Made by a program: the position numbers and the translations under genes. The notes beneath the pieces are model-generated. The model did no database searches, was not told the origin of the DNA, and saw nothing but the letters and a program-made list of their open reading frames with translations. From Escherichia coli (GTDB lineage Bacteria > Pseudomonadota > Gammaproteobacteria > Enterobacterales > Enterobacteriaceae), in the NCBI RefSeq assembly GCF_048403405.1, contig NZ_CP183129.1: a stretch of 64,000 nt of DNA; one strand, 5' to 3'. Positions 27,041-61,609 of the stretch are shown one piece after another; within the stretch, counting starts at the first letter, position 1, and each line of letters starts with the position of its first letter.

Positions 27041-27165
27041 AGCACGAGAGCCTTTTTTGTCAGCTATCTATACTTTAAGGTGACTGCCAAAACAGACTCG
27101 ACGTAGCCTTCGAGCTGCGCACCAACACGGCCTCAGATGGGCCACATCTGGAGAAACACCGCAAT

Positions 27166-27178
27166 GTCAGTTATTGGT
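27166..27178. repeat. prophage attachment-site core, left copy (attL)
   Basis: GTCAGTTATTGGT identical to 62788-62800; preceded here by the native pflA ATG (27164-27166). Confidence 0.75.
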
Positions 27179-27253
27179 GACATTTTTTGATATCTAATTA
27201 CATGAAATAAAAGGATTTATTTCTTGTCACGTCCACACATTGACCACATCGAC

Positions 27254-27290: not shown

Positions 27291-27509
27291 TTACATCCAC
27301 ATAATTTGCTGTCCTGATGGCAACGGGTGCGGCCTTACGGCGTGGACTTCTCCCGGCTTCACGATGTATCGCTGTACCGACTCATAAGTGATGAACGTGG
27401 CGCTGCAATTCACGTTCTGGCACTGATGATAACGCTCTTTTGTCGTGTCAGTGATATAGCGACTTGTACGCGCATGTGCGGCATGCTGGCATAAAGGACA
27501 ATGAAACAT
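27291..27509 (-). CDS. ogr: late-gene transcriptional activator Ogr (zinc finger)
   Basis: ORF 27291..27572; MFHCPLCQHAAHARTSRYITDTTKERYHQCQNVNC matches P2 Ogr; start placed at ATG 27509. Confidence 0.9.
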   Translation of the reverse strand: MFHCPLCQHAAHARTSRYITDTTKERYHQCQNVNCSATFITYESVQRYIVKPGEVHAVRPHPLPSGQQIMWM

Positions 27510-27590: not shown

Positions 27591-28754
27591 TCACTCATCA
27601 TCTTCTGTTTCGTACTCCACATCAGAAAGCCTGACCTCAAGCTCTAAGGACGTCGTGAAGCCGCTATTATTCAGAAAATGTGTCACCTTAGTGATTGTCC
27701 AGTCCTGCTCGTCTATGACGCGCTTAAAGCCAGACACTTTGACCGGTGTTTCCGTGTAAATATCTGCCCGACCGGTAGCCAGGCTGATGGAGAACTCCGC
27801 AACGCCCCGTTGCAGTTTATCCCACTTCGCCTGAGCGGCGCGCATGGCCTGCGCTTTCGTGGCATATACCGTGGTCAGGGCAAAAACGTTGTCAGCCTCA
27901 CCGGCCATGTATTCACCTTCACGCGCTTCCGGTACTTTAGGCGCTTTCTTCTGCCTGACCGGTTTCGCTTTCGGGTGCTCCAGTGCGCGCAGGTGTTTCT
28001 CTTTCTTTTTGCGTTTCAGTTTTACCTTCTGCTTTTGAGGCTTCGGGTCTTTGGTGTGTAGCCATTTTGCCGTTACACCGGTGTAGGCTCCACGGTCAGC
28101 AATCGCAAAATGATGGCGGTCGCCGTCGCTGCGGGTTATGGTGACCTGCGGGATTTTTTTACCGCTGGCCGTCACTCCCTGCCCCGCTTTGAGAAACAAC
28201 AGTTTTCCCATTTTTACCGACACCTCCCCGCCGTTGCGTTCAGCAAGGCGGGTCAGGAATTTTGCATCAGACTCCTGCGACTGGTCGATGTGCGGGATTT
28301 TAATTCCGGCCAGTGACGGCGCGACACTGGCTTCCAGCCTGTTACGGGAGGCTATCACCTCAACAATCGCACCGAGCGTGGTGTCATGCCAGGAGCCTTC
28401 ACTGCGGGAATTGAGCGTCCCGCGAAAATCTGCACTCCGGGCGCGGATGGTAACCACATCCGGCGCGCCCCGGTGTTCAACCTCATCAACGGTAAATTTC
28501 CCTTTGCATACCAGGGCAAAACCTTTCCAGCCGATATACACCGTCAGGACAGCGCCACGAACCGGCAGCCCGACCTGCCCGTCGGCATCGTTCAGTTCAA
28601 TATCAAGCTGGTCAGCCTCAAAGCCCCGGTTATCCGTCAGGGTCATGCTCATCAGACGGTCGCTGATATTGCCGGTAATATCCCTGCTGTCGAGCATCAG
28701 CATGTAATCCGGCGTCAGCGTACTGCCTGCATCAAATGTCAGCGCATCCAGCAT
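27591..28754 (-). CDS. D: tail protein D (late control D)
   Basis: 387-aa ORF; P2 gene order and size. Confidence 0.85.
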   Translation of the reverse strand: MLDALTFDAGSTLTPDYMLMLDSRDITGNISDRLMSMTLTDNRGFEADQLDIELNDADGQVGLPVRGAVLTVYIGWKGFALVCKGKFTVDEVEHRGAPDVVTIRARSADFRGTLNSRSEGSWHDTTLGAIVEVIASRNRLEASVAPSLAGIKIPHIDQSQESDAKFLTRLAERNGGEVSVKMGKLLFLKAGQGVTASGKKIPQVTITRSDGDRHHFAIADRGAYTGVTAKWLHTKDPKPQKQKVKLKRKKKEKHLRALEHPKAKPVRQKKAPKVPEAREGEYMAGEADNVFALTTVYATKAQAMRAAQAKWDKLQRGVAEFSISLATGRADIYTETPVKVSGFKRVIDEQDWTITKVTHFLNNSGFTTSLELEVRLSDVEYETEDDE

Positions 28755-29233
28755 TATCCCGCCCCCGTCATACCCGTGAATCTGGTCGCCATACTGCCAG
28801 CCTTACCGATGAGCGATTCCGCCTGTTTACCGATATCGCCATAAAGCGCGGCCAGTGATTCATCAACGCGGGTGAGCGACAGCGTAAAATCAATTTTCCG
28901 GGGTGTGCCGTCTGCAAAGAAAATACTCCCTGTTTCACTCACCCTGCTGATGACATACATGCCGTAAATCATGCCGGTGCCATCCAGCAACGGCCACGCC
29001 CGACCTTCCTCTGCCATCAGCCTGAGCGTGGTCATCGTCAGCTTTCCGCCTGTCAGTTCGGGATAAAGCACACCGGCAAGCGTAATGTTTTCCTCACCCA
29101 CACCGAGAAACTGAAAGGCATCCCGTTTACCGATACGGGAATTTGACGGCCAGCGATAATCTGATTCACGCTGCATGGTCTGGTGTGGCAGCGTCTGGCG
29201 CATAAAAACAAACATACCTAACGCGAGCATCAT
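28754..29233 (-). CDS. U: tail protein U
   Basis: 159-aa ORF; position between T and D. Confidence 0.85.
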   Translation of the reverse strand: MMLALGMFVFMRQTLPHQTMQRESDYRWPSNSRIGKRDAFQFLGVGEENITLAGVLYPELTGGKLTMTTLRLMAEEGRAWPLLDGTGMIYGMYVISRVSETGSIFFADGTPRKIDFTLSLTRVDESLAALYGDIGKQAESLIGKAGSMATRFTGMTGAG

Positions 29234-29247
29234 TTTTCGTCACCTCC

Positions 29248-31695
29248 TTAACCGTCATGCATCATGCTGGCACGGGCGCGCGCACGTTTATCCCGCTCGT
29301 ATTTTTCGAGCGCATCCTGTAACTGGCGGTCGAGCTGAGTCCCCGGTGCAGTACCGCCCGTCAGACTGATGTGATATTCGTTTTTACTCTGGTCCACATA
29401 AGAGCGGCCAGCCGGTGCCGTAACCGGCTGATAAGCCTGATAGCCTGCATAAGAGCTGGTCGCCGGAATATAACCACCGCTGCCATACGTGGCGGCTTGA
29501 GTTCTGGCGGCGGTCTGGTCAAGTGCGTCAGACTCTTTGTTGATGACCCCGAGCTTTTCCAGTACCCAGTCAATACCGCTGCGCAGTTTGTTGAACGCAT
29601 TAAGCGGCAGCATCAGCGCGTCAGCCAGTGCCTGCCCGAACATGACGCCCGTGTCACGGCAACGATTCAGGGTGTCCTGGGTGGCTTTAACCGGGGCAAT
29701 CAGGTTTTTAAACCACTGCCACGCGGCCTGTAACTTTTCGCCCAGCCAGTCAAACACCGGTTTCAGTGGCGTGAACAGCTCCCCCACCGGCGCAAATGCC
29801 GCTTTCAGCCCTTCAACCACACCGCCAAAGAATGCGCTGACAGGCTCCCAGTATTTACGGATAAGCAACGCCCCGGCGACAATGGCAGCCACCACGGCCA
29901 CAACCGGCCAGCTAATCGCCCCGATGGCCGTCATAATGGCACTACCAACCGTCGTGAAGATTGCACCCATTGCGCCTGCTGCCGCGATGATGGCATTGAT
30001 GCCGGTGATAACCGGCCAGGCTACGAGGCCAATGGCACCGATGACACCAGTCAGCGCCAGTGCACCACCGACAATGATGCCGATGGTTGACGCCAGTGAT
30101 TTGTTTTTCTGTATCCAGCCGTCGAGTTTTAACACATACTTTGTGGCCGTCTGCGTGAGCTTACGCAGCGCGCCTTCCTGCTGGTCAAACAGGTCAGTCC
30201 CCACCGCCTCATAAGCGGACTGAAACTCCTTAAAGTCACCGCCGAGGTTGTCCTGCATGATATTTACCAGCTCCGCGGTCTTCCCGTCTGAGGCTTTAAA
30301 CGCAGCGGTCAGTTTGTCCAGCTTTCCGGTTGAGGCGGCAGTCATCAGCACGGCGGCGGCTGAGCTGGCCTCCTCCCCGAAAATGGTTTTCATGTATTCA
30401 GCCTGCTGGGCAGTACCGAGCCGGTTTTTCTCAAAACTGGCCTGCATTTCTTTCAGAATTGTAAATACTGGTCGGGTGTTTCCCTTGCTATCTGAGGTTT
30501 TCACTCCAAGCTCTTTGAGTGCATCCCATGCTTTTCCCGTCGGTGCCTGCAGGCGACTTAACACGGCACGGCTTCCCGTCCCCGCCATTGAACCGGTAAT
30601 TTTTGCATCATGCAGCGCCCCGACCATTGCGGCGGTTTCTTCAATGCTGACACCGGCATTTTTTGCCACAGGTGCGGCATAGGTCAGCGCATCGCTCATA
30701 CCGTCAAAATCGGCGGCGGTTTTGTTCATCGTCATGGAGAGAACATCCCCGATATGAGCGACCTTATCGTTTGAAAGCTGAAAGGCGGATTTCATCCCCA
30801 TCAGCAGGGCGGCGTTTTCTTCCATCGTGCGACGGTTCGCCAGCGCCATATTCAGCGTGACCGGCGTTGCCGCCTGAATGGCATCAACATCCCCACCGGC
30901 TTTCGCAATAATAATCTGAGCACCGGCTGCATCATCTGCCGAGGCTGCGGTATTGTCGCCGAGCTGGCGCGCCTGCTTGCGGAGCGCGGCCATTTCGGCG
31001 GAGTCTTTTGCCACACCGAGCACGGCCTGCAATTCTGAGTTTTTCTGCGCAAACTCATAACCGGGCATCAGCAACTTAACTCCGGCCATCGTTCCCGCAG
31101 CAGCAATCCCCACACCGGCAGCGCCCACTGAGGCCATATTTCCGGCCAGTTCCTTTCCGGCCTGATAACGCTGTTTGACTGCGTTAAGTTTTGCCTGTTG
31201 CGCACTGACACGCGCCAGCGCGTCACGCTGCCGGTTAAGCTGGGCGGTGGTTTCACTGATACGGTTTTTCAGTCCCTGCTCATCATGTGCAAGATTGCGG
31301 GTATTAATTCCCACAACGGCCAGTTCCCGCTGCTGGCGTTTAACGGAATCCGTCAGGCGGTAATATTTCGCCTGTAAGTCCTCCGCCGCACGCTTCGCGG
31401 ATTCCAGCACTTTCGCCTTAGCACGTGTCGGACGTTCGGTGTTTTTAAACTGTGTTGCAAGGGCTTCGGCCTCCTGCCGTGCCTTTTCAAGTGCATGACC
31501 AGTCACGGCGAGCTGTGCACTGGTCTTGCGAAATCCCTCAATACGGGATGCGTGACCGTTCAGCTCGCGCAGTGATTTTTGTGTTTCCCGGATATCCCCC
31601 GACAGCGATTTGCTCGCTGTGCGGATGGATTTAAACGGGCGGGATGCCTGGTCAACAGCCCTGAGCAATACCTGTAATTTTACATTGTTACTCAT
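29248..31695 (-). CDS. T: tail tape-measure protein T
   Basis: 815-aa Ala/Gly-rich coiled-coil protein with TM stretch; P2 T size. Confidence 0.88.
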   Translation of the reverse strand: MSNNVKLQVLLRAVDQASRPFKSIRTASKSLSGDIRETQKSLRELNGHASRIEGFRKTSAQLAVTGHALEKARQEAEALATQFKNTERPTRAKAKVLESAKRAAEDLQAKYYRLTDSVKRQQRELAVVGINTRNLAHDEQGLKNRISETTAQLNRQRDALARVSAQQAKLNAVKQRYQAGKELAGNMASVGAAGVGIAAAGTMAGVKLLMPGYEFAQKNSELQAVLGVAKDSAEMAALRKQARQLGDNTAASADDAAGAQIIIAKAGGDVDAIQAATPVTLNMALANRRTMEENAALLMGMKSAFQLSNDKVAHIGDVLSMTMNKTAADFDGMSDALTYAAPVAKNAGVSIEETAAMVGALHDAKITGSMAGTGSRAVLSRLQAPTGKAWDALKELGVKTSDSKGNTRPVFTILKEMQASFEKNRLGTAQQAEYMKTIFGEEASSAAAVLMTAASTGKLDKLTAAFKASDGKTAELVNIMQDNLGGDFKEFQSAYEAVGTDLFDQQEGALRKLTQTATKYVLKLDGWIQKNKSLASTIGIIVGGALALTGVIGAIGLVAWPVITGINAIIAAAGAMGAIFTTVGSAIMTAIGAISWPVVAVVAAIVAGALLIRKYWEPVSAFFGGVVEGLKAAFAPVGELFTPLKPVFDWLGEKLQAAWQWFKNLIAPVKATQDTLNRCRDTGVMFGQALADALMLPLNAFNKLRSGIDWVLEKLGVINKESDALDQTAARTQAATYGSGGYIPATSSYAGYQAYQPVTAPAGRSYVDQSKNEYHISLTGGTAPGTQLDRQLQDALEKYERDKRARARASMMHDG

Positions 31696-32115
31696 TCGTG
31701 TTTCCGCTTCGCCGGAGCGCCTTTTCGCGCCATGTGATGAGTTCGGTCAGGCTCATGGGATACAGTTCTGATGGCGGCCAGTGAAATATCACTGCCACAT
31801 CCGCCATCAGGTCATCGACCGAGAGATTTTTCGGAAACGTCACTGCACCGAGTTCGGTGACAAAAAACCGACCACCTTACCGGCCAGCGCCACAAGGTCA
31901 GGCAGTTCCAGTGCGGCGACTTCCTGCTCGGTCAGCATCGGTGCCGTCATGCGCGGCAACACCTTAATCAGTGCATCGACTTCGGAGTTTGCGACCGCTG
32001 CCAGACTGACACCGCGCAGCGTCCCGGCACTGGGTTTCATCAGCGTGACCTGTTCGATAACCTGCTCACCACGTTTGACCGGATTGTCCAGGGTAATCAC
32101 ATTTTCTTTGTTCAT
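31688..32115 (-). CDS. E: tail assembly chaperone E and frameshift product E+E'
   Basis: E = 31840..32115 (91 aa). Slippery heptamer T_TTT_TTG on the minus strand at 31867-31861; the -1 frame continues to TAA at 31690-31688, overlapping the T start. Confidence 0.8.
31861..31867 (-). other. programmed -1 ribosomal frameshift site (E/E')
   Basis: mRNA heptamer UUUUUUG about 20 nt before the E stop; the -1 frame stays open for 59 codons. Confidence 0.7.
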
Positions 32116-32171: not shown

Positions 32172-32690
32172 TCACAGGCCGATATTGCGGCGGTGTTGCT
32201 CCAGCCGGTCGACGCCGTTCACCTTCTCAATCATGTTGATGGTGTCGATTTCGACCAGCTCCTTACCGTCCATCGTCAGCCGGAAATAGGTGCAGACCAC
32301 GGAGATTTTCGACTCGGTGTCTTCTCCCTGTTTACCCTCGCCGGTGTCGATTTCTTTCTGACGTCCACGCATGACCACCTCGACGGCCACCGTTTCGCCG
32401 GTATCGTCACGCTGGTAAGAGCCTGCAAAACGAATCGGCACAGCATCCACACCGGTTGCGGCGTAAAGCTCCCAGATAACCGAATCCGGGAAGCCACCCA
32501 GCGACCACTCCATTGACAGCGCATCGTCATCAAGGCCGAGGTCTACCGGTGCGCTGCCGTTCATTCCCGCACCGCGATAGTTTTCGAGCTTACGGGTCAG
32601 TTTTGGCAGCGTGACGGACTTTGCAACGCCCTGATAGCTGTAGCCGTTCAGAAAGACGTTCATTAATTTGAGTTTGCGCGGCATTGCCAT
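32172..32690 (-). CDS. FII: tail tube protein FII
   Basis: 172-aa ORF; matches P2 FII. Confidence 0.9.
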   Translation of the reverse strand: MAMPRKLKLMNVFLNGYSYQGVAKSVTLPKLTRKLENYRGAGMNGSAPVDLGLDDDALSMEWSLGGFPDSVIWELYAATGVDAVPIRFAGSYQRDDTGETVAVEVVMRGRQKEIDTGEGKQGEDTESKISVVCTYFRLTMDGKELVEIDTINMIEKVNGVDRLEQHRRNIGL

Positions 32691-32702: not shown

Positions 32703-33893
32703 TTAATTGCTGTTAACCGAGGTGACCAGATTTGCCAGGTATTTATCGGTAATACGCTGGCGCAGGGTCAGGTTTTCGAGAGGAGGCACCGGTGTATAGT
32801 CGTAGTCGATATACAGTTTTCCGGCCTTGAGGGTTTCCGCATCGTTGGATTCTTCGCTGAACCAGCAGGTCGCATCCACGATATAGCCGTTTGTTTTCAG
32901 CTCACGGAATTTGGCATTGATACCGTCAACGATGTCGCGAATCAGCGTTGCGGTGATGGGCTTGTCCACCGCCCACATGTGCGCCTCAGCCATCGTGTCG
33001 GCCAGCACCTGCGCGGTGCGGGTGTAGTTTTCAAAGAGGAACAGCGGGTCATCAGAGCAGGTACGGTTACCCCAGAAGCGGAAACCGTCGCGGCGAATCA
33101 GCGTAGTGACGCCTGACTCGTTAAGCAGGTCAGCATCGGTGCCGGACTCCTGCAAATCCCAGAATACAGATGCACTGATGCCGGTAACACCGTTCACCCC
33201 AACGTTGGACAGCGTTTTATGCCAGCCCTGCTCCTGGTCGATTTTAGCGCGCAGCCCCAGCGCACGGGCAGTGGCATACGCGGTGGCGGTGGTACTGGTG
33301 ACCGTATCCCATGCGAGGAAATCCGGCCAGATGACCATCAGCTCACGCTGGCTGAAATTCTGGCGGTAGGCTTTCACCTCAGAAATGGTTTTACAGCCCC
33401 ATGCGCTGATATACCCGAAAGCGCGCAGCTTCTGACAGACTGATGCCAGTGCAACAGCCACCTCTTTGGTATCCAGTCCCGGCACGCCGAGAATACGCGG
33501 TTTAACACCGGTTACCGACTCCGCCGCCAGCAGGGCTTTCAGTCCGGTGTACTGACCGTTTTCGTCGGTGGTACCGATGATATTGGAAACGGTCTGCGCA
33601 AGTTTCGTTTCTTCGTCGTCGCCGGTGCCGTCTTCCACGCGCACAACAACGGTGACCGGTTTTGACTGGTCAGCGATGGCCTGTAACGACGCCGCCAGCG
33701 TGCCTTTTTTACCGGCCTTTGCAATTGCGCTCTGCACATTGGTAATCAGCACCGGTTTATTGAGGGGGAAGGTTTCCGCATCTGCATCGCTGGCCGTGCA
33801 GACCATGCCGACAATGGCAGTGGATACGGTGGAAATGACGCGGGTGCCGTCGTTAATCTCCAGCACCTGCACGCCGTGATGATAGTCACTCAT
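32703..33893 (-). CDS. FI: contractile tail sheath protein FI
   Basis: ORF 32703..34007; start placed at ATG 33893 (MSDYHHGVQVLEINDGTR...), 396 aa. Confidence 0.9.
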   Translation of the reverse strand: MSDYHHGVQVLEINDGTRVISTVSTAIVGMVCTASDADAETFPLNKPVLITNVQSAIAKAGKKGTLAASLQAIADQSKPVTVVVRVEDGTGDDEETKLAQTVSNIIGTTDENGQYTGLKALLAAESVTGVKPRILGVPGLDTKEVAVALASVCQKLRAFGYISAWGCKTISEVKAYRQNFSQRELMVIWPDFLAWDTVTSTTATAYATARALGLRAKIDQEQGWHKTLSNVGVNGVTGISASVFWDLQESGTDADLLNESGVTTLIRRDGFRFWGNRTCSDDPLFLFENYTRTAQVLADTMAEAHMWAVDKPITATLIRDIVDGINAKFRELKTNGYIVDATCWFSEESNDAETLKAGKLYIDYDYTPVPPLENLTLRQRITDKYLANLVTSVNSN

Positions 33894-34353
33894 CCGTCTA
33901 ACTCCGTGGTTAATGGGTGAGTGGTATTTTCTGTTGTGCAGAGCATGAGACGCTATTTGACCTGGCTGGTCAGTGGATGAAACAACAGATAAAGAAAAGG
34001 CGGACAATCCGCCCGCCTGTCATGATTTGTACTCACTTATTTCCCGACTGACAATTTACATAGCCAAAACGCTATCAAATCTGACAGTCTGCTTTGAGCG
34101 AGGAGCGGAAGTTAAGGGGCGGTTTAGTATCTAACATGATCTATATGAAATAGTGATTCTTGGCGTATTGCTAATACAACCCCGATTTGATGTAACTCTT
34201 GTCCACTTTCATCTAACTTCCTCTTGTTCAGGTTCATTTTTAACTGCTAATATGCAGTATATAAAGGAACATGGGTTTACCGTTGTAAGATGCTGCTGAA
34301 AGGTAAGCATAATTATATTGTTAGGTGTCTTTTTATTTTTAAAGGCTTTAAAC

Positions 34354-35460
34354 ATGTCTAAAACACGCGATGATTTCAGCTCAAAAACTGTAAGAGCTCT
34401 AGCACTACGGGCTGGTTATAGGTGCTCATTCCCCGGTTGTAATCAGCTTACAGTTGGCCCCAGTGATGAATCCTTAACATCTATCACAAATATTGGGGTA
34501 GCTGCGCACATTCATGCCGCAGCTCCTGGGCCATTAGCAAGACGATATGATCCTAATCAAACACCAGATGAAAGGAAAGATATAAATAATGGCATCTGGA
34601 TGTGTGTTAATCACAGCGTTGAAATTGATAGAGATGAAATTAGATATACAGCAGAAATTCTTAAAGAAATGAAGAAAGCCCACGAAGAAGAGATTAAAAA
34701 AGAGGTGAGCAATGGTTCTTCATCAACCAAACATAATGATTTCATTGCAATAGGTATAGACATTATCGTTTTCGGAGAGCTTACCGGAATCTCAACCAAT
34801 GAGTGGACTATAAAATTTGCAAACTTCTTTACTGGCGATTTATCTAAGTTAATATCTTTCAACGAAAGATTCCACTCCATCCCTACCGAAGAAAAATTTA
34901 TTCTAGTTAATCAACTTGGTGAGGGGCGTTTGTTATCAGCACCAATAAAATTAAATAAATTACCAGATAGCTATGAAGTAATCGTCCCTGTTGAAATAGA
35001 CACTCCGCGCATCAATTGCAATAGCCTCCCAATGGATTTAGATATTTTCACGACAGGCGATTTATTTGTAAATAGTTCTGGTGATATAGCTACGATATCG
35101 GGGTTTGAAGCTTTACCACAAAAAATATATACTTCCCTTTCCACCATTAGAGGTGAGATTTATTCCCATCCAACATTGGGTTCCAGAATAAGACAGTTCT
35201 TCCATGACTTTGAAGGAACAATGTGGCTAGACAAATTAGTTAAATTAGAAGTTATACGCTTATCTTGTATACCAATTTTTGATTCAATCACAAAAAACAA
35301 ATACACTCCATTACATTGTGTAAAAAATGTCAAAAATATTCGGGTGATACCAACTGAATATAAAGATAGCAAATTACCTATTGAGTTCACCCTTGATATT
35401 GAAGGTTTCGGCATCTGGTCCAAAGAAATAAGTGTTTTCTCACCTAAATACGATGAATAA
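34354..35460 (+). CDS. accessory (moron) protein with N-terminal HNH-nuclease-like motif; function unknown
   Basis: ORF 34318..35460 (TTG); probable ATG start 34354 with AAAGG SD. Motif RCSFPGC...AAHIHAAAPG...NNGIWMCVNHSVEID fits the HNH pattern; AT-rich; at the P2 Z/fun variable position. Confidence 0.6.
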   Translation: MSKTRDDFSSKTVRALALRAGYRCSFPGCNQLTVGPSDESLTSITNIGVAAHIHAAAPGPLARRYDPNQTPDERKDINNGIWMCVNHSVEIDRDEIRYTAEILKEMKKAHEEEIKKEVSNGSSSTKHNDFIAIGIDIIVFGELTGISTNEWTIKFANFFTGDLSKLISFNERFHSIPTEEKFILVNQLGEGRLLSAPIKLNKLPDSYEVIVPVEIDTPRINCNSLPMDLDIFTTGDLFVNSSGDIATISGFEALPQKIYTSLSTIRGEIYSHPTLGSRIRQFFHDFEGTMWLDKLVKLEVIRLSCIPIFDSITKNKYTPLHCVKNVKNIRVIPTEYKDSKLPIEFTLDIEGFGIWSKEISVFSPKYDE

Positions 35461-35932
35461 AATTGAAGTTCTTGAACCGCTATATTTGGCTCCGGTATTT
35501 ACTCCGTGAGTGGTATCCTAGGGCCCTGTGCGGAGGATTTCATTGTAATGCTCATACGCTGTAGCCAGGTTCATGTTTCTTCAGCAAGGCCATTTGGGCT
35601 AGTGGCCTGCTCCCCATTGCTCCACACAAAAAATTATTCGTTACGTCCGCTCCTGGCACACAGTAGACATCGAGAGACAGCTTCGAGCGATAATCAGAAG
35701 TTCGCAATTGTCATCACCCAAAAGTTGTTTATAACTTGTAGCAAGGTGCATTGTTCAACGTTGAGTTGGTCAAGTTCAGTTAATGATCGGACGATATCTC
35801 ACTCTGCCCAATAGCACATCTGTTTTACGGGAAGTGAGTTTCAACATCACGAGCTTTGTTAGTAAACATCACTTATTTATTAAGAATATGTTTCATAGAA
35901 CAGGGCCGGAGAACTTAATTTCATATTCTAAA

Positions 35933-35954
35933 AAGTGATGCGCAGACATCACTT
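35933..35954 (-). terminator. hairpin downstream of the 353-aa cargo gene
   Basis: AAGTGATG-cgcaga-CATCACTT about 30 nt after the stop at 35984. Confidence 0.35.
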
Positions 35955-35983
35955 TAAACTTTTTAAAGCGCGAAAACCCTACG

Positions 35984-37045
35984 TCAGAATTTGACAGTAG
36001 GAACGGTTGGCCAGATTCTAGCAATAGACTTAAACATAGTCTCCACAATATATTCGAGAACCTCATCATCAGGCTCTTTCATTAATGCTTTTACTTTATT
36101 TATTCTATCCTGAAGTGAAGGGTGAGATTTTGAAAAACCCCAGTTGTTTTTACCTAACATAGTAACGCTGAATAATGCACAGTATATAGAAAGTCTTCTT
36201 TTCCTGCTCACCAACACACGGTCATACATAGACTCTTCACAGTAATTATCTATATGGTCAAGGATGAATTTATTTGCAAACTCATCACATGAGAACTCTT
36301 CATTATGAGCTTGTTCTTGTGTGAATTCATTCATATCATAACTGGTACCTTCCTGCTGATGAATGATATGTCGGACTTCATGCAAAAATGCCCAAGCAGC
36401 AGCAATAATTGCTAATTCAGCTGTTGCTCTTTTAACTGGTTCGATTTTACTGTCAGGCATGGTGCCAGGTTCAGGAATTCCTATTGGTAGTGGTTTTTCA
36501 TCCGGTACCTCATCTTTAGCCGTGTTTTCAAAAGCGCAGATTAACTGTTCAAAGTTTACGAAGTCTGCCGAACTGAAATCAGCAAGTTCTTCCTGTAGCT
36601 CCTCGAGTAAAACATGTAATTCTGACTCGGTTGAGACTAATGATATTTTCTTTGAGTCAAAAAGATCTAAAATAGAATCCCTTTTATCGATAATGTCTTC
36701 AATTTTTTTATTTTGCTCAGTGTTTATTGCTTCGTAGCCCGCCATTGCAGCAAATGTTCCTATCCAGAACGTGCGCAAAACACGATGATTGAAGCGGATA
36801 AATCGATACATCCCCGCATCAAAAATAAATTTACCGTCTGTATGATTATCGCTATGATTTTGGAAGGTCATGTTAAATTTAGACCAGAACTCATCCAGTT
36901 CATTCTGACGCTCTGGAATAGAGGCTAAAAACATTTTTCTTACGCTGTCCTGAACTGTTTTATCTTCATTATGCTCTTCAAACATTTGCTCACCTATATT
37001 GCTGTTAATTTTATCTAATGATGAACCGAGTGGGTTGTTTACCAA
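35984..37045 (-). CDS. accessory (moron) protein with HEXXH motif (putative zinc metallopeptidase-like); function unknown
   Basis: ORF starts at TTG 37045; more likely ATG 36985 with AGGTGA SD. Motif FLHEVRHIIH; AT-rich; convergent with the HNH gene. Confidence 0.5.
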   Translation of the reverse strand: MVNNPLGSSLDKINSNIGEQMFEEHNEDKTVQDSVRKMFLASIPERQNELDEFWSKFNMTFQNHSDNHTDGKFIFDAGMYRFIRFNHRVLRTFWIGTFAAMAGYEAINTEQNKKIEDIIDKRDSILDLFDSKKISLVSTESELHVLLEELQEELADFSSADFVNFEQLICAFENTAKDEVPDEKPLPIGIPEPGTMPDSKIEPVKRATAELAIIAAAWAFLHEVRHIIHQQEGTSYDMNEFTQEQAHNEEFSCDEFANKFILDHIDNYCEESMYDRVLVSRKRRLSIYCALFSVTMLGKNNWGFSKSHPSLQDRINKVKALMKEPDDEVLEYIVETMFKSIARIWPTVPTVKF

Positions 37046-37248
37046 GCCTCATGTTACATGTTTTTTGCTTTCCGAATATTTAAGCGTTAGAAGCAAGTAG
37101 GAAAAACGTAGAGCAGTTAACCAAGGCTTTCTACAGGCAGATTAACATAACTTGGTCAGGAATGTCCGCTCTTGGCACATAGCGGACTGTCAGATTAGGC
37201 TTTACTCTGTGCTATAGATATGTAAGCTCACACCAGAGATCATACAAC

Positions 37249-37779: not shown

Positions 37780-39825
37780 TTACACCTGTGCGACGTTATA
37801 CCATGTGCCATTGATGTATTTTTGTATTGGCCTGAATACTGCGGGGTCATCACCATCGACTTCACCGACAATACCAAGCCCGGTAATTACGTGCCCTGCT
37901 TTCTCATACATCACCCCTTTCTGCATGGTCTGGACAACACGTGTGCCAAGTCTGATATCTCTCACATAGCGGGAATCAAAGTTACCGTAATCCGAGGGAT
38001 TAACACGCCCCGTAATATTTATGGTCTTATTACTTTGAATGCTTCCGGAAACAAAGCGCATAACATGGACGTTATTAGCATAAACATCCAGATTACCATC
38101 GCCATTTTGTTTAAATCCGGTGTCGTTATCACCAAGAACAATAGAGTTCCCACCCAACGCGTTATTCGTGCCAAGTGCCAGCCCGCCATCAATCCTGGCA
38201 CCATTACCAACAGACACAACTCCTGTTCTTAAGTTGATGCCGAATGGCCTTAATGGCCCAATATCTCCATTTTCACCCTCATTTTCTCGTGTAGGAATGA
38301 TATACAGGTTTTCTTCAGAACGGCGAAAAATAGCACCAAAAGATGAATTAAATATCCTCAGCGCATTGACTGTAGATATTTTTACTTCACTGCTGAAAAG
38401 GGCTTTAACAAGAACATACAGAGCATCCCATTTAAGATTCATCAGGTCTTTTGTTGTGGTGCTCTGGCGACTTCTCCATTTGAAATATTCATTGCCGTTA
38501 TCCCCCGTTTCAAACCACATGTATGAATCAGTGTCACCATCGGCATCATTTTTAAATCCAATCTTCGCCCAGTCAGTATTTCGAATCCAGGCAAGGATTG
38601 AGTCGTTTTCAAAAGTAAGTCCACCGGACAAGGTATCGCCATTTTTTTGCACGGCGTTCCCGGCTCGGTTTACCGTTTCCTGTAAACCGAGATATTCGAT
38701 AACGGCGGCAACGGTCGATTTAGCCAGAATATCCCGCCCGACTTTTGTCAGGGTCGCCAGGCTGGCAACATCATTCCCCGTAAAATACGGAAACCTGTCT
38801 GCCGCAGTAGCAAGCCCCGCCAGCGCCGTCAAAGTGGCATCTTTCGGTTGCTTACCCGCAAGCGCATTAGTCATGGTGGTAGCAAAATTCGGGTCATTGC
38901 CCAGCGCCGCCGCCAGCTCGTTCAGCGTATTCAGTGCGTCAGGCGACGAGTCTACAAGGGCGGCAATCGCGGCCATAACGAAAGCCGTGTTTGCGATCTG
39001 AGTATTATTCGTTCCCTGTCGCGCAGTTGGCGTCGTTGGCGTTCCGGTCAGTGCAGGGCTGTTTAATGGCGCTTTCTTGTTCGTTTCATCCATTACCGTC
39101 TTAACGGCTTTTGGTGTTGCGGCGAGCGTTTCAGACGTGCTGTTGGTCGCACTACTGAGCTGGACAAGGCCTTTTCGCGCTATGGTGGCGTCCTGTGCGG
39201 TATATTTCCCGTTAGCAAGGTCATACGCGGCCTTTACCGCTTTCGGCGTTGCGGCCAGTGTTTCAGACGTGCTGTTGGTCGCACTGCTTAACTGAGTAAA
39301 ACCTTTTGCGGTCAGCGAGGCGTCAGGGTGACGTCGTGACTGTTCATGTTCTGCAATTTTGTCATCAACGTAATCCTGCGTTGCCATCACCGTTGTGGTG
39401 TCAATGGTCAGCTCCACTGAGGCCACACTGCTGACGATGATGACCATGCGGCAGGTCTGCGAACGCCCTGAGCCTTCGGCAAGGGCTGGCTTATAACTTT
39501 CGGCCATGTTCGCCACGGCAATTAGCGTTCCCGCATCATCGTACAGGCCAAGTTCACGCATCCAGAAACCGCCCACCTCCGGCGGAATAACCAGCTCTGC
39601 GATAATATAATTACTGTTTCGTTTGTCCTGGCTGATTTTGTTCAGCGCATGTCGCCAGACTTCGTGGATAAGCCCGGTCTGTCCGGCATCCGGGACAGGC
39701 AATTTACCACCGCCATCCCCGACGGCCATCGTGGTAATGTTGACCTTCCGCCCTCCCGGTGCGGTTGCCGCTGCCAGCTTTGCTGCACCGGCAGTGGTGA
39801 TAACGGTTTTGAATTTTGTGCTCAT
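37780..39825 (-). CDS. H: tail fiber protein H
   Basis: 681-aa ORF; conserved N-terminus MSTKFKTVITTAGAAKLAAA; internal repeat QLSSATNSTSETLAATPKAVK. Confidence 0.9.
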   Translation of the reverse strand: MSTKFKTVITTAGAAKLAAATAPGGRKVNITTMAVGDGGGKLPVPDAGQTGLIHEVWRHALNKISQDKRNSNYIIAELVIPPEVGGFWMRELGLYDDAGTLIAVANMAESYKPALAEGSGRSQTCRMVIIVSSVASVELTIDTTTVMATQDYVDDKIAEHEQSRRHPDASLTAKGFTQLSSATNSTSETLAATPKAVKAAYDLANGKYTAQDATIARKGLVQLSSATNSTSETLAATPKAVKTVMDETNKKAPLNSPALTGTPTTPTARQGTNNTQIANTAFVMAAIAALVDSSPDALNTLNELAAALGNDPNFATTMTNALAGKQPKDATLTALAGLATAADRFPYFTGNDVASLATLTKVGRDILAKSTVAAVIEYLGLQETVNRAGNAVQKNGDTLSGGLTFENDSILAWIRNTDWAKIGFKNDADGDTDSYMWFETGDNGNEYFKWRSRQSTTTKDLMNLKWDALYVLVKALFSSEVKISTVNALRIFNSSFGAIFRRSEENLYIIPTRENEGENGDIGPLRPFGINLRTGVVSVGNGARIDGGLALGTNNALGGNSIVLGDNDTGFKQNGDGNLDVYANNVHVMRFVSGSIQSNKTINITGRVNPSDYGNFDSRYVRDIRLGTRVVQTMQKGVMYEKAGHVITGLGIVGEVDGDDPAVFRPIQKYINGTWYNVAQV
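39101..39311. repeat. imperfect direct repeat (about 80 bp, two copies) inside tail fiber gene H
   Basis: Copies at 39101-39179 and 39233-39311 share an identical 26-nt core GTTTCAGACGTGCTGTTGGTCGCACT. Confidence 0.8.
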
Positions 39826-52405: not shown

Positions 52406-53113
52406 CTATATATACTTCCTTTTTACTCTACTTAATTCTATCACTGATGAGGAGTGACAAAATGACAAATTAATAGTATCGATATAATCCAAAATTTGAC
52501 TCTCAACCTCAATAAAAATATTTTTGGGCCCATTACTAATCGATATACCGATTTCATCCAAAACAGCCATCATTTTTCTCTGATGAGTTTTATATTTATA
52601 GTCTTTATTTTCCTCTGTAATATGTGCATTGGCTTCCTCAATAACACATTTGATTCTAGATATTATTTCTAGATAATCTCTCGAAACAGATATATCACCG
52701 CCTTGCGCTTCAGGGAACATAACCCTATACCATCTAAAAAAATTAACTTTCTCTGGATAGATGCTACTTCTTTTAGTTAACTCAGCACTTGCAAATTCTC
52801 TAAACATCGTCAGATGACTAGTGTAATTACTATTATTATTATTTTTAACTCCAGCGTTATATGTCATCAAAGCAATCATAACACCAAAAACGGTAACAAA
52901 AGTTGTTATAAGCCATCCAAACGCCTGAAAATACATTACTATACCAGATGTTTTTTCCGCAAAAAATTTTAAGCACTGGCTATCGAAGCATATATCACGC
53001 TCATATAGCTTTTCATTCTGAATAGTTTCAAAAAGAGAAATTAGCGAAAAAATCAAAAAAAGAGCTGACGACACACCGACAATATATTTGAGAAGTCTAA
53101 TATTTGCATTCAT
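52406..53113 (-). CDS. 2-TM membrane protein, translationally coupled to the upstream reverse transcriptase (candidate effector)
   Basis: 235 aa; start ATG overlaps the RT stop (ATGA at 53113-53110); two N-terminal hydrophobic helices; AT-rich. Confidence 0.6.
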   Translation of the reverse strand: MNANIRLLKYIVGVSSALFLIFSLISLFETIQNEKLYERDICFDSQCLKFFAEKTSGIVMYFQAFGWLITTFVTVFGVMIALMTYNAGVKNNNNSNYTSHLTMFREFASAELTKRSSIYPEKVNFFRWYRVMFPEAQGGDISVSRDYLEIISRIKCVIEEANAHITEENKDYKYKTHQRKMMAVLDEIGISISNGPKNIFIEVESQILDYIDTINLSFCHSSSVIELSRVKRKYI

Positions 53114-54384
53114 AATGGTTTTAAAGATGCCAATCTAGATTTAAAACACTCCAGTTTTTCTTTAAATGATTCAGAGCGAGTAAGAATAATCATCTTATAT
53201 CTCGTCAAATCATATTTTCTTTTATACCAATGTTTATTTTGATTACCTTTCGAATACGACAACTCTAAACTTTTTATAGCTGCATCAATCACAGCAACAT
53301 CTCTTTTAGATGGCATCGGTTTTATTGCCTGCAACTGTTTCTTGAATGATTCATATTTTTCATGCCCAACACGGCCAAGCTTATTCACTCTCCCCATACA
53401 TCTATTGAATTCTTTTCTGTATGCAACACTTGTTTTTGTGTTATTTTTTGCCGCCAGTAATTTCAAATTATGTATAGATGCCCTGATTCTTTTGACTTCA
53501 TCGGATGGTAGTCGAGGTGAGTCATAGTCAACTCTTAAACCATGTACTTTTATAGGTTCAGATGAACAGTGAAATATTTTTGTTTTGTGCTTATTTATCG
53601 GCAAGTCATGCTCAGAAAGCATCCTCTCTATATGGCTTTGCATTTGAGAAAAATCATAATTACTTATTTTAGATGACACGGTAATATCATCTACCAAACG
53701 CGTATAAACAAGTCCTTTCCTCTGCGCACGTCTTACCACATCCCCTTCAACAGCGAATAAACACAAAGTTGCTATATAGCTTGATGTTAAGGCCCCCTGT
53801 ACGACAAAATCATCCTTAGTACATATATCCACCAAGTATTCAAGAGCCTCATCCTTAATATGCAATATCTCCTCAAACACGCTCCTAACCAGATCTCTAT
53901 GGATATTATCGAAAAAATTACTTATATCCACCTTGAGAACTGTTTTTGCTCCACAATGAGCCTTTGCACATGAAACATAGTCACGTTTGACATTAGAATT
54001 TAAAACATCATTTTTACTGGGAACTGAACCAAACAAAAATGAAGGAAAAACAACCAATTCCTTAAAAATACGTTTATTAATTCTACTCTGTAATAATCTC
54101 ATTTTAGGATGTAGGGAGTAGACAATCCGTTTGCTTCCGTCAATTTTGGGAATTTCTTTTAGAGTATATTTCTCATCTAATGATAATTCTGCAATAGCTT
54201 TAAGCTCTTCAACAGAAATCGATAAAGCCTTTGACAACTTTTCAAGTGTTGTGATAGGAGCATTGGATTTGCTGTATGGTTTAAATTTATCCATAAACAT
54301 ACCATTCAAATTCAAAGTTACGTACGGTCTTCCCATACTCAAGGGTGGAACAGCAGAGATGCTTACATCAACAATTGTCAGCAA
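53110..54384 (-). CDS. retron-type reverse transcriptase with about 100-aa C-terminal extension
   Basis: RT motifs IPKIDGSKRIVY, CAKAHCGAKTVLKVDISNFFDNI, QGALTSSYIATLCL, YTRLVDDITV (YxDD), IKVHGL. Track start is TTG 54384; in-frame ATGs at 54336, 54300, 54294. Confidence 0.75.
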   Translation of the reverse strand: MLTIVDVSISAVPPLSMGRPYVTLNLNGMFMDKFKPYSKSNAPITTLEKLSKALSISVEELKAIAELSLDEKYTLKEIPKIDGSKRIVYSLHPKMRLLQSRINKRIFKELVVFPSFLFGSVPSKNDVLNSNVKRDYVSCAKAHCGAKTVLKVDISNFFDNIHRDLVRSVFEEILHIKDEALEYLVDICTKDDFVVQGALTSSYIATLCLFAVEGDVVRRAQRKGLVYTRLVDDITVSSKISNYDFSQMQSHIERMLSEHDLPINKHKTKIFHCSSEPIKVHGLRVDYDSPRLPSDEVKRIRASIHNLKLLAAKNNTKTSVAYRKEFNRCMGRVNKLGRVGHEKYESFKKQLQAIKPMPSKRDVAVIDAAIKSLELSYSKGNQNKHWYKRKYDLTRYKMIILTRSESFKEKLECFKSRLASLKPL

Positions 54385-54625
54385 CAGCCTCTGCTATCTT
54401 TCGACCGTACGTAATGTCGTCGGCTACGGCACCATCGTAGTTGACGACGGTGGGGCCTCGCTGATAGGTCCATAGTGGACGCTTTTTTGTAAAAGCAAAA
54501 ACTGACAATTTAATGTTGTTGACTGCCGCATACCAAGCGAATCGCTGGTGCGCTAAGAATAATGCAACAAAAAAATAAGAATTTCAACCGGGTAACTGCA
54601 AGCCAGCGACATCGTTTAGCGCGCA

Positions 54626-54644
54626 GTGCTTTCCCCGCCTCGCC
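54626..54644. other. phage cos site (19-nt cohesive-end sequence)
   Basis: GTGCTTTCCCCGCCTCGCC is the reverse complement of the P2 cohesive end GGCGAGGCGGGGAAAGCAC as I recall it; located between Q and the A-side genes as in P2. Confidence 0.7.
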
Positions 54645-60659: not shown

Positions 60660-60916
60660 TTCCAGACCCTCCGGCTTTTCAGAAAGGTCAGAGCCTTCTT
60701 TAACGGACTCTGTTTTTTGGTGCGGATAATGATTCCCTTACGCCCCTTACCGTGGGTAATGGTGAAGTCAATCGCCCTTGGGCTTTCGTTACGCAATAAC
60801 TGAGCAATACAACGAGGCTCGTTCATCCTTTCCACCTTAAGCCGCACGGCCATGTCTTGATTTGCTGTAACTAATGCGATTTTTCCAGTCATGCCATTAT
60901 GTCGGAGCTTCATCAA
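60656..60916 (-). CDS. hypothetical early protein (P2 orf78 position)
   Basis: 86-aa ORF between cox-like gene and B. Confidence 0.55.
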   Translation of the reverse strand: MMKLRHNGMTGKIALVTANQDMAVRLKVERMNEPRCIAQLLRNESPRAIDFTITHGKGRKGIIIRTKKQSPLKKALTFLKSRRVWK

Positions 60917-61175
60917 CTAGCTGGGCTGCGTACTTGTCCCACTCACGGCGATTAATCCATAACTCAGCATGACCGCCCGGCTTTAATGGGTCCGTCATAT
61001 AAAAGGCTGGTAACTTGCCTGCTTTCGCCATTTCAGCAACAGCGCGAGGCGTCTTACCGATGTAAAGAGCAAAACCCTCTTTCGAGAGCAAATCCGACGG
61101 TGCGGCTGCAAGTTTGATGTCACATTTTTTACTTTTTGTGAGATCAGATACTTTTTCTCCAACATCGTTATTCAT
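60897..61175 (-). CDS. cox: Cox-like excisionase/transcriptional regulator
   Basis: ORF 60897..61223; HTH-like segment ALYIGKTPRAVAEMAKAGKLPAFYMTDP resembles P2 Cox; start probably ATG 61175 (about 92 aa), uncertain. Confidence 0.65.
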   Translation of the reverse strand: MNNDVGEKVSDLTKSKKCDIKLAAAPSDLLSKEGFALYIGKTPRAVAEMAKAGKLPAFYMTDPLKPGGHAELWINRREWDKYAAQLVDEAPT

Positions 61176-61297
61176 TTCTGATCCAATACTCATTTTGATA
61201 TCCTCAACTTTGGTGCCATTCAACCAGAGCTATTTGAAGCCGCTCTGCGTTGTTCTGGCGTGTCGCATACAACATAAATTACGAGATACGACAATTC
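61176..61297. promoter_or_regulatory. lysogeny/lysis switch region (divergent Pe/Pc promoters and operators)
   Basis: Intergenic region between divergent cox-like and C genes, as in P2. Confidence 0.5.
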
Positions 61298-61609
61298 ATG
61301 TCAAATACACAAATCACATCTCAAGCAGAGAAACTCGCACTTATTCGGGAATCAGAAAGAATGACAAGGAAGCAAGTTGCTGAATTAACTGGAATTAACT
61401 ACAACACCTATGCTGGATATGAGCAGGGAAAAGTAAAGATGTCTTTTGACGCAGGTATGAAATTTTTCAAGCCAGAAAGATTTCGCAAGTACCGTGACTG
61501 GTTCATGTTTGATGAAACTGATCCCGCTGGCGGACAAATAGCCCCGGCGCTCGCGCACATTGGGCAAGACTCAACAACCTTGCACCACTCAGACCAAAAG
61601 ACTGGCTGA
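61298..61609 (+). CDS. C: immunity repressor C (HTH)
   Basis: ORF 61250..61609; start placed at ATG 61298 (MSNTQITSQAEKLALIRESERMTRKQVAELTGINY...); C-terminus GQIAPALAH...SDQKTG resembles P2 C. Confidence 0.8.
   Translation: MSNTQITSQAEKLALIRESERMTRKQVAELTGINYNTYAGYEQGKVKMSFDAGMKFFKPERFRKYRDWFMFDETDPAGGQIAPALAHIGQDSTTLHHSDQKTG

What the first reader, a model, noticed from the sequence alone, without database searches (positions are those of the whole stretch)
31688..32115. Conserved E/E' programmed -1 frameshift is intact
The slippery heptamer UUUUUUG lies about 20 nt before the E stop, and the -1 frame stays open for 59 codons to a stop that overlaps the T start. This supports a functional tail-assembly module and hence a probably inducible prophage.
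Basis: partly seen in the sequence, partly recalled or inferred. Interest (0 to 1): 0.25.

Follow-up and report, generated by a model that had tools for sequence, protein, structure and literature searches.

The report
Phage P2 E/E′ tail-chaperone frameshift site
This is the already-characterised programmed -1 ribosomal frameshift of phage P2 tail genes E and E′, sitting intact in a near-P2 prophage of E. coli; it is real but ordinary, and it does not by itself show that the prophage is inducible.

Summary
On the minus strand, gene E (32115-31840, 91 aa) contains the heptamer T TTT TTG (31867-31861) in the X XXY YYZ phase, 18 nt before the E stop. The -1 frame then runs 57 more codons to a TAA (31690-31688) that lies 8 nt inside gene T, giving a 142-aa fusion. 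The stretch is 98.2% identical to phage P2, whose record annotates this very site. gpE is 100% identical, and the fusion differs from P2 gpE+E′ (UniProt O64312) by one residue (A87T). Across 16 divergent relatives (about 29-78% protein identity) a phased slippery heptamer is always present, against synonymous-codon expectation. No conserved downstream RNA structure exists. An upstream SD-like motif is explained by the encoded peptide. The prophage (27166-62801, inserted in the 5′ end of pflA) has every essential P2 gene full length, an exact cos end and att repeats, so it looks intact. "Probably inducible" does not follow. The switch is P2-type (short C repressor plus Cox), with no Tum, no 186-type CI and no LexA box, and P2 is the classic non-SOS-inducible phage. 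However, phage pro147, with a 99.8% identical immunity module, was recovered after mitomycin C treatment. Already known; low interest.

The parts
31840..32115 (-). Gene E (gpE, 91 aa): tail assembly chaperone, the zero-frame product
   Evidence: ORF. Pfam Phage_TAC_7, residues 7-85, E=1.5e-12. 100% aa identity to P2 gpE.
31861..31867 (-). Slippery heptamer T TTT TTG, the site of the -1 shift
   Evidence: In X XXY YYZ phase. Identical to the P2 site annotated 'site of -1 translational frameshift'. Present in 80/80 close relatives. A phased heptamer is present in 16/16 divergent relatives, against synonymous-codon expectation.
31688..31861 (-). E' extension: -1 frame read after the slip (57 codons plus TAA), giving the 142-aa gpE+E'
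   Evidence: Pfam Phage_P2_GpE, fusion residues 104-139, E=1.2e-21. The P2-allele fusion with Val at the junction is exactly AAD03292.1/O64312. The window allele has A87T, from TCG>TCA at 31858.
29248..31695 (-). Gene T, tape measure protein (815 aa); its start overlaps the E' end by 8 nt
   Evidence: Pfam PhageMin_Tail, E=1.8e-45. 98.0% aa identity to P2 gpT over the full length.
32172..32690 (-). Gene FII, tail tube protein (172 aa), immediately upstream of E
   Evidence: Pfam Phage_tube, E=2.3e-60. 100% aa identity to P2 gpFII.
32703..33893 (-). Gene FI, tail sheath protein (396 aa), first gene of the F operon
   Evidence: Pfam sheath domains. 98.7% aa identity to P2 gpFI.
33959..33987 (-). 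pF late-promoter activator-site region, placed by alignment to P2 17555-17583. The interior has diverged, but the TGT-N12-CCA half-sites (33984-33967) are kept.
   Evidence: Alignment to the P2 annotated site. Function not tested.
28754..29233 (-). Gene U, tail protein
   Evidence: Pfam Phage_P2_GpU. 100% aa identity to P2 gpU.
27591..28754 (-). Gene D, tail/baseplate hub protein, last gene of the FETUD operon
   Evidence: Pfam Phage_GPD. 99.0% aa identity to P2 gpD.
27291..27509 (-). ogr, late-gene activator needed to transcribe the F operon
   Evidence: 100% aa identity to P2 Ogr. PGAP calls it 'OgrK'.

Best explanation
This is the phage P2 E/E+E' programmed -1 ribosomal frameshift, in a P2-family (Peduovirus) prophage of E. 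coli. Most ribosomes translating E stop at TGA and make the 91-aa gpE. A minority slip back one base on T TTT TTG: tRNA-Phe in the P site moves from UUU to UUU, and tRNA-Leu in the A site moves from UUG to UUU. These ribosomes then read GUC ACC GAA... and make the 142-aa gpE+E'. The reported frequency in P2 is 2-3 times that of lambda G/GT, or about 10% by my recollection of Christie et al. 2002. By analogy with lambda gpG/gpGT, the shared N-terminal chaperone domain binds the tape measure protein T, and the E' domain recruits the tube protein FII, so the fixed ratio set by the slip is needed for tail assembly. Shown here: the sequence anatomy, near-identity to the experimentally characterised P2 site, family membership of both halves, and nucleotide-level conservation of the heptamer. 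Inferred from the literature: that the shift happens, how often it happens, and the chaperone role. No 3' RNA stimulator is involved.
For: The heptamer is in the correct phase within a 34-nt overlap, and the -1 frame stays open to a stop inside T. The fusion matches Phage_TAC_7 plus Phage_P2_GpE. The stretch is 98.2% nt identical to P2, whose record annotates E+E' and the frameshift site. The heptamer and all flanking bases are identical except one synonymous-in-E change 3 nt downstream. The Val-junction fusion of the P2 allele is exactly AAD03292.1/UniProt O64312, 'Tail assembly protein E''. The literature states that the P2 -1 shift occurs at TTTTTTG and gives 91-aa E and 142-aa E+E' (PMC3091744), and that its efficiency is 2-3 fold higher than lambda's (PMC5009743). 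The two-frame architecture is seen in 400 of 418 phage records. An in-phase TTTTTTG is present in 13/16 divergent loci, TTTTTTC in 2 and AAATTTT in 1. Hosts with GC3 of 0.9 still use GGT TTT TTG, and P(any heptamer | amino acids) is 0.001-0.1 per sequence. Of 80 close relatives, 80 keep the heptamer, and 78 of the 78 complete loci have the same 91 aa + 57 codon layout. The gene order FII-E/E'-T matches the conserved tail-chaperone position.
Against: Nothing in the sequence argues against it. The limits are as follows. No expression data exist for this strain. The primary paper (PMC135442) was not held, so the ~10% figure and the essentiality of E' rest on a citing review and on my own recollection. 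The window allele has Thr instead of Ala at fusion residue 87, which is rare (2 of 80 relatives), and its effect is untested. The identity of the junction residue (Leu-Val) follows the reference annotation and has not been measured here.
Confidence: 0.95

Rival explanations
1. E' is an independent small gene. It would start at the GTG (31843) that overlaps the E stop (GTGA) and be translated by termination-reinitiation coupling as a 51-aa protein, as PGAP annotates it. No frameshift would be needed.
For: PGAP annotates a stand-alone 'GpE family phage tail protein' at 31688-31843. That exact 51-aa sequence is called on about 1000 contigs. The GTGA overlap is a plausible coupling signal.
Against: The GTG is not conserved even in close relatives. 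The homologous -1-frame codon is TTA in Kp4884-2, GTA in BIS20 and CTG in ENT4. Annotated E' starts in other phages sit at varying positions. The position of the E stop varies from 6 to 66 nt after the heptamer, while the heptamer itself is fixed. In P2 the curated product is the 142-aa fusion. From my recollection of Christie et al. 2002, fusion polypeptides showed translation as an extension of E.
Confidence: 0.03
2. The frame change is made mainly by RNA polymerase. Transcriptional slippage on the T6 run would insert one extra U, so a subset of mRNAs encodes the fusion directly, with Phe-Phe at the junction (GFFVTE...).
For: A homopolymeric T6 run is the kind of sequence on which RNA polymerase can stutter. 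A one-base insertion would place downstream codons in the same -1 frame. Transcriptional slippage is used in other bacterial genes (reviewed in PMC5009743). Two relatives have TTTTTTC and one has AAATTTT. AAATTTT is not a homopolymer and so argues for tRNA re-pairing rather than polymerase stutter.
Against: What is conserved is the phased X XXY YYZ pattern, including Z and the codon phase (17/17). Polymerase slippage would not need that pattern. The run never lengthens beyond six in 96 relatives, although longer runs slip far better. The A AAT TTT variant cannot work by homopolymer stutter. The literature treats the P2 site as ribosomal.
Confidence: 0.04
3. The site is a fossil. The prophage is defective, the tail operon is never expressed, and the intact frames reflect only recent acquisition.
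For: No expression or induction data exist for this strain. P2-type prophages are not SOS-inducible. The pF activator site has diverged from P2 in its interior.
Against: All essential P2 genes are full length, mostly at 91-100% aa identity (H, int, C and cox are divergent alleles). The exact 19-nt cos end is present, as are the att repeats. PGAP flags no pseudogene inside the element. pro147, with the same immunity module and the same retron-cos layout, forms plaques.
Confidence: 0.05

Closest known systems
Bacteriophage P2 genes E and E+E' (AF063097/NC_001895; gpE+E' = AAD03292.1, UniProt O64312; Christie et al. 2002, J Bacteriol 184:6522)
   Same: Same genes, same heptamer T TTT TTG in the same phase, and the same 18-nt distance to the E stop. 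Same 91-aa and 142-aa products and the same 8-nt overlap with T. 98.2% nt identity; gpE is 100% identical.
   Different: One base differs 3 nt after the heptamer (TCA vs TCG). It is silent in E and gives Thr instead of Ala at fusion residue 87. The surrounding prophage differs from P2 in int/C/cox (53/48/40% aa), in the C-terminal part of tail fibre H, and in both cargo loci.
Phage lambda G/GT tail assembly chaperone frameshift, and the conserved dsDNA-phage tail-chaperone frameshift (Levin et al. 1993; Xu, Hendrix & Duda 2004)
   Same: Two overlapping ORFs between the major tail (tube) gene and the tape measure gene. A -1 slip near the end of the first ORF, and a short plus a long product sharing the N-terminus (PMC5009743; PMC3091744).
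   Different: No detectable sequence similarity to lambda G/T. The heptamer differs (lambda G GGA AAG; my own knowledge). P2-type efficiency is reported as 2-3 fold higher. The tail here is contractile (sheath FI plus tube FII).
Phage 186 orf51/orf52 (P2 E/E' homologues) and the 186 SOS-inducible switch
   Same: 186 carries the homologous pair, annotated 'probably produced by a translational frameshift'. The 186-like BIS20 locus has the same GGT TTT TTG TCA context.
   Different: 186 is SOS-inducible through the LexA-controlled Tum acting on a 192-aa CI. The window prophage has none of these, so 186 is not a model for its induction.
Escherichia phage pro147 (KR073660) and the P2-EC46 prophage of ECOR46 (AJ512680, AM157366)
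   Same: pro147: the int/C/cox module is 99.8% identical, and the retron-cos-Q region is 99.6% identical. P2-EC46: the Z/fun-slot cargo is 99.8% identical and the tin/old-slot gene 99.9% identical.
   Different: Neither single record covers the whole element. The window prophage combines the pro147-type switch and retron with the P2-EC46-type cargo.

Membership tests
P2-type E/E+E' tail assembly chaperone -1 programmed frameshift | Two overlapping ORFs located between the tail tube gene and the tape measure gene | tested here: met
   Order FII (32690-32172), E (32115-31840), E' (to 31688), T (31695-29248), with Pfam assignments.
P2-type E/E+E' tail assembly chaperone -1 programmed frameshift | Slippery heptamer X XXY YYZ in the zero-frame phase, inside the overlap of the two frames | tested here: met
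   T TTT TTG at 31867-31861 with phase verified. The overlap is only 34 nt.
P2-type E/E+E' tail assembly chaperone -1 programmed frameshift | Homology of the N-terminal part to gpE (Phage_TAC_7) and of the -1 extension to GpE' (PF06528) | tested here: met
   47.8 bits (cut-off 25) and 76.4 bits (cut-off 23). One residue differs from O64312.
P2-type E/E+E' tail assembly chaperone -1 programmed frameshift | The downstream ORF lacks a conserved start codon of its own | tested here: met
   The GTG that PGAP uses here is TTA, GTA or CTG in close relatives. Annotated E' starts elsewhere vary in position.
P2-type E/E+E' tail assembly chaperone -1 programmed frameshift | Heptamer conserved across the family at nucleotide level, beyond what the protein requires | tested here: met
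   17/17 sequences have a phased heptamer. Synonymous resampling gives P = 0.001-0.1 each.
P2-type E/E+E' tail assembly chaperone -1 programmed frameshift | The fusion protein is actually produced at a set fraction (~10%) and E' is essential for tail assembly | not testable with these tools
   Known for P2 from the literature (and my recollection of Christie et al. 2002). No expression data exist for this strain.
SOS-inducible 186-type (Eganvirus) prophage switch | Long CI repressor with Apl and CII, plus a LexA-controlled Tum antirepressor | tested here: not met
   tblastn with 186 Tum, CI, Apl and CII found no hit better than E=0.03. There are no CTGT-N8-ACAG sites in the window. The best CTG-N10-CAG site has 8 mismatches to the LexA 20-mer.
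P2-type (non-SOS-inducible) C/Cox switch | Short (~99 aa) C repressor divergently transcribed from a Cox-family gene, next to int | tested here: met
   A 103-aa HTH protein at 61298-61609 (+), 48% identical to P2 C. A Phage_Cox protein at 60897-61193 (-), E=3e-26. int is at 61703-62698. Whether this allele is truly non-inducible was not tested.
Complete Peduovirus (P2-like) prophage | All essential P2 genes full length, plus a cos site and flanking att repeats | tested here: met
   38 of 42 P2 proteins are matched. The only ones missing are the non-essential fun(Z), orf91, tin and old. The exact 19-nt cohesive end is at 54644-54626. The 13-nt att core is at 27166 and 62789.

The most novel reading that the evidence does not exclude
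The purine-rich, Shine-Dalgarno-like element AAGGTGG (31879-31873), which ends 4 nt 5' of the heptamer, is a functional modulator of the P2-type shift. It could work by pairing with the 16S rRNA 3' end and holding the ribosome with UUU in the P site. This might explain how P2-like phages reach about 10% frameshifting without any 3' RNA structure. The element shows a sharp positional peak of anti-SD complementarity across 17 divergent loci. However, most of that signal is accounted for by the conserved K/E-V-V/I peptide (synonymous resampling P about 0.07). Its spacing is also shorter than the 10-14 nt known to stimulate -1 shifts in dnaX (my own knowledge).
Probability: 0.1. Interest if true: 0.3.

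Novelty: already known. Interest (0 to 1): 0.07.

Why it matters
It matters little as a discovery. The E/E′ frameshift was described for P2 in 2002 and belongs to the textbook tail-chaperone frameshift conserved in long-tailed phages. The practical value is in annotation. Automated pipelines, including PGAP for this genome, do not model the slip; they call E′ as a stand-alone 51-aa GTG-started gene on about a thousand contigs, so the real 142-aa product is missing from protein sets. The check also corrects a reasoning error: intact structural genes, even with their recoding signal, indicate a complete prophage, not an inducible one. For P2-type prophages the switch (C/Cox, with no SOS input) is what decides that.

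Tried and rejected
(1) Downstream stimulatory RNA structure. The 60-nt and 80-nt stretches after the heptamer fold no better than shuffles (z = -0.3 and -0.4). The 120-nt stretch gives z = -2.35 because of a hairpin about 50 nt downstream. RNAalifold on 17 divergent sequences predicts 0 conserved pairs. I rejected it, in agreement with PMC3091744.

(2) Upstream SD-like stimulator. The positional peak is real, but it is not significant once the amino acids are fixed (P about 0.07). I kept it only as the low-probability novel case.

(3) SOS link. There is no LexA box and no Tum or 186-type switch proteins.

(4) A missing cos site. I suspected this because P2 homology stops inside Q. The exact cohesive end was then found at 54644-54626, with a retron between it and Q, and the same layout occurs in plaque-forming pro147.

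(5) The first viral-contig scan returned only relatives that were at least 99% identical. These were useful for population counts but not for deep conservation, so I used a protein-mode search of phage genomes instead.

(6) The primary paper PMC135442 is not held. No PDB sequence relative of the fusion exists. There is no Rfam family in the prophage.

(7) A quick heuristic to map pF gave a spurious site. I replaced it with a direct alignment.

(8) I tested a Phe-junction version of the fusion, which was one possible reading of the GenBank misc_feature coordinate. It is not in the protein collection, whereas the Val-junction version is the reference protein.
Full report
**The observation.** The feature lies on the minus strand. 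Gene E runs from ATG 32115 to TGA 31842-31840 and encodes 91 aa. Near its end the zero frame reads GGT TTT TTG TCA CCG AAC TCG GTG CAG TGA. The heptamer T TTT TTG therefore occupies 31867-31861, and its first base is the third base of a codon, which is the X XXY YYZ phase needed for tandem tRNA slippage. Eighteen nucleotides separate it from the E stop.

The -1 frame is closed until 31876. It overlaps the E frame for only 34 nt, and the heptamer sits inside that stretch. The -1 frame then stays open to TAA at 31690-31688.

The heptamer alone is not remarkable: it occurs 40 times in the window. The significance comes from its position, its phase and its homology.

**What it is.** The predicted fusion (142 aa) matches Pfam Phage_TAC_7 over residues 7-85 and Phage_P2_GpE over residues 104-139 (E = 1.2e-21). 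The neighbours are the tail tube protein FII upstream and the tape measure protein T downstream, followed by U and D.

The 601-nt stretch is 98.2% identical to bacteriophage P2. The P2 GenBank record annotates E, a joined CDS E+E′ ([quoted passage not shown]), and a misc_feature "site of -1 translational frameshift". A base-by-base alignment shows the heptamer and its flanks are identical. The one exception is a single base 3 nt downstream (TCA here, TCG in P2), which is silent in E and changes Ala to Thr at residue 87 of the fusion.

An exact-sequence look-up shows that the P2-allele fusion with Val at the junction (…GFL-V-AELG…) is AAD03292.1 / NP_046780.1 / UniProt O64312, "Tail assembly protein E′". 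A Phe-junction alternative is not in the collection. gpE itself is 100% identical to P2's.

A citing paper states that in P2 the -1 shift occurs at TTTTTTG and yields the 91-aa E and the 142-aa E+E′, with no downstream hairpin (PMC3091744). The Atkins et al. review states that the efficiency in P2 and its relatives is 2-3 fold higher than lambda's G/GT (PMC5009743). The primary paper was not available to me. The ~10% figure and the demonstration that E′ is essential come from my recollection of its abstract.

**Comparative evidence.** A tblastn search of 50,697 phage genomes with the fusion found 418 records. In 400 of them the match covers at least 80% of the fusion, and nearly all listed hits were joined from two pieces, meaning two reading frames. 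The hosts range from Escherichia to Burkholderia, Ralstonia, Pseudomonas, Vibrio and Aeromonas.

I fetched 16 loci spanning roughly 78% down to 29% identity. Every one has a phased slippery heptamer just upstream of the E stop: T TTT TTG in 13, T TTT TTC in 2 and A AAT TTT in 1. The distance to the E stop varies from 6 to 66 nt. The residue before Phe-Leu varies (G, T, P, D, S), but its third base is always T. Hosts with GC3 near 0.9 still use GGT TTT TTG.

I resampled synonymous codons with the amino acids fixed and GC3 matched. This gives a probability of 0.001-0.1 per sequence of obtaining any phased heptamer. The sequences are not phylogenetically independent, so the summed log-probability overstates the case.

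Among 80 near-identical viral contigs (71 distinct sequences), all keep the heptamer, and all 78 complete loci have the 91 aa + 57 codon layout. The window's Thr allele is a minor variant, seen in 2 of 80.

**Mechanism.** The best-supported mechanism is ribosomal tandem slippage on T TTT TTG with no 3′ stimulator. The 60-80 nt after the site fold no better than shuffled sequence, and an alignment fold of 17 sequences predicts no conserved pair.

An SD-like AAGGTGG ending 4 nt upstream gives a striking positional peak of anti-SD complementarity across the divergent set. Once the conserved K/E-V-V/I peptide is held fixed, the excess is marginal (P about 0.07), so I do not claim it as a stimulator.

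The chaperone role is inferred from the lambda G/GT model described in PMC5009743: the shared domain would bind the tape measure T, and the E′ domain would recruit the tube protein. It is not tested here.

**Rival explanations.**
- Independent initiation of E′ at the GTG used by PGAP. That codon is not a start codon in close relatives.
- Transcriptional slippage on the T6 run. What is conserved is codon phase and the X XXY YYZ pattern, including a non-homopolymeric A AAT TTT variant. The run never lengthens.

**Context and the "inducible prophage" inference.** The window is E. coli chromosome and matches strains 4621 and MS 69-1. It differs from strain 4621 at only four positions across 40 kb.

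The prophage spans 27166-62801 between pflB and pflA, bounded by a 13-nt direct repeat, GTCAGTTATTGGT. Evidence that it is complete:
- It is about 97% identical in nucleotide sequence to P2 over the structural and replication regions. Every essential P2 gene is full length. Only the non-essential fun(Z), orf91, tin and old are absent.
- ogr is 100% identical to P2's.
- The pF region is present, with the TGT-N12-CCA half-sites retained although the interior has diverged.
- The exact 19-nt cohesive end is present at 54644-54626.

So the element looks complete, and "functional tail module" is reasonable at the sequence level.

Inducibility is a different question. Int, C and Cox are only 53%, 48% and 40% identical to P2's, but they are of the P2 type: a 103-aa HTH repressor and a Cox-family protein. 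There is no homologue of 186 Tum, CI, Apl or CII and no LexA box. P2 is not SOS-inducible whereas 186 is, and the short repressor marks the P2 type (PMC9826266).

Against that, phage pro147 has a 99.8% identical int/C/cox module and a 99.6% identical retron-cos-Q region. It was obtained as a plaque-forming phage from a culture treated with mitomycin C (PMC5285337). The passages I read do not report an untreated control. The fair statement is that the prophage is probably viable, and that SOS inducibility is undetermined and doubtful by analogy with P2.

**Verdict.** The extrapolation to inducibility is not justified. The feature is already known and carries one conservative amino-acid difference from the reference. 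Interest is low.

Noticed in passing
window 27163-27190 and 62730-62801: The prophage is integrated in the first codons of pflA (att core GTCAGTTATTGGT at 27166-27178 and 62789-62801). The original pflA start is left as an 8-codon stub at the ogr end. At the int end the phage supplies a new ATG (62730) and 20 codons ([20 protein letters not shown]), fused in frame to SVIGRIH.... PflA therefore becomes 265 aa and is cut off from its native upstream region by about 35.6 kb.
   Followed up: partly
window 52406-54610: A type IV (Ec48-family) retron: a 2TM effector at 52406-53113 (-) (PADLOC 2TM_IV, 4e-85); an RT at 53110-54294 (-) (RT_IV, 9e-177); and a candidate msr/msd region at 54295-54610 with perfect inverted repeats 54318-29/54403-14 and 54373-81/54502-10. 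It lies between the cos site (54626-54644) and gene Q, not in the tin/old slot. GC is 0.35. The same layout is present at 99.6% identity in phage pro147. No Rfam hit.
   Followed up: partly
window 52736-52742: Homopolymer length difference inside the retron effector gene. The window has A7 and a single intact 235-aa ORF. Strain 4621 (NZ_CP103479) has A8, and PGAP annotates two 'retron Ec48 family effector membrane protein' fragments there. This could be a sequencing error or real on/off variation.
   Followed up: partly
window 34000-37248: The P2 fun(Z) slot between G and FI holds low-GC (0.38) cargo. One gene is a 368-380-aa protein (34318/34354-35460, +) with an N-terminal HNH-like endonuclease domain, similar to PDC-M68A, CBASS/SAVED-HNH effectors and SduA. 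The other is a Lit/peptidase-U49-family protein (35984-36985, -; weak: Pfam 27.3 bits, PADLOC 9e-10). The region is 99.8% identical to the P2-EC46 fragment AJ512680.
   Followed up: partly
window 54806-56644: A 612-aa DUF7380 protein matching the candidate defence family PDC-S39 (2e-68) occupies the tin/old slot between gene A and cos. GC is 0.34. It is 99.9% identical to P2-EC46 AM157366.
   Followed up: partly
window 31688-31843: Annotation artefact. PGAP calls E′ as a separate 51-aa 'GpE family phage tail protein' starting at a GTG that overlaps the E stop, instead of the 142-aa frameshift fusion. The identical 51-aa sequence is recorded on about 1000 contigs, while the window's true fusion is absent from the protein collection.
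   Followed up: yes
window 31873-31879: An SD-like AAGGTGG sits 4 nt upstream of the heptamer. Anti-SD complementarity peaks at this position across 17 divergent E genes (mean -6.2 vs -0.8 kcal/mol). This is largely explained by the conserved K/E-V-V/I residues (synonymous resampling P about 0.07).
   Followed up: yes
window 37783-39825: The tail fibre gene H is the most divergent structural gene relative to P2. Nucleotide homology breaks at P2 14158-14543, and the C-terminal 195 residues are only 52% identical. G is 92% identical. This suggests a different receptor specificity.
   Followed up: no
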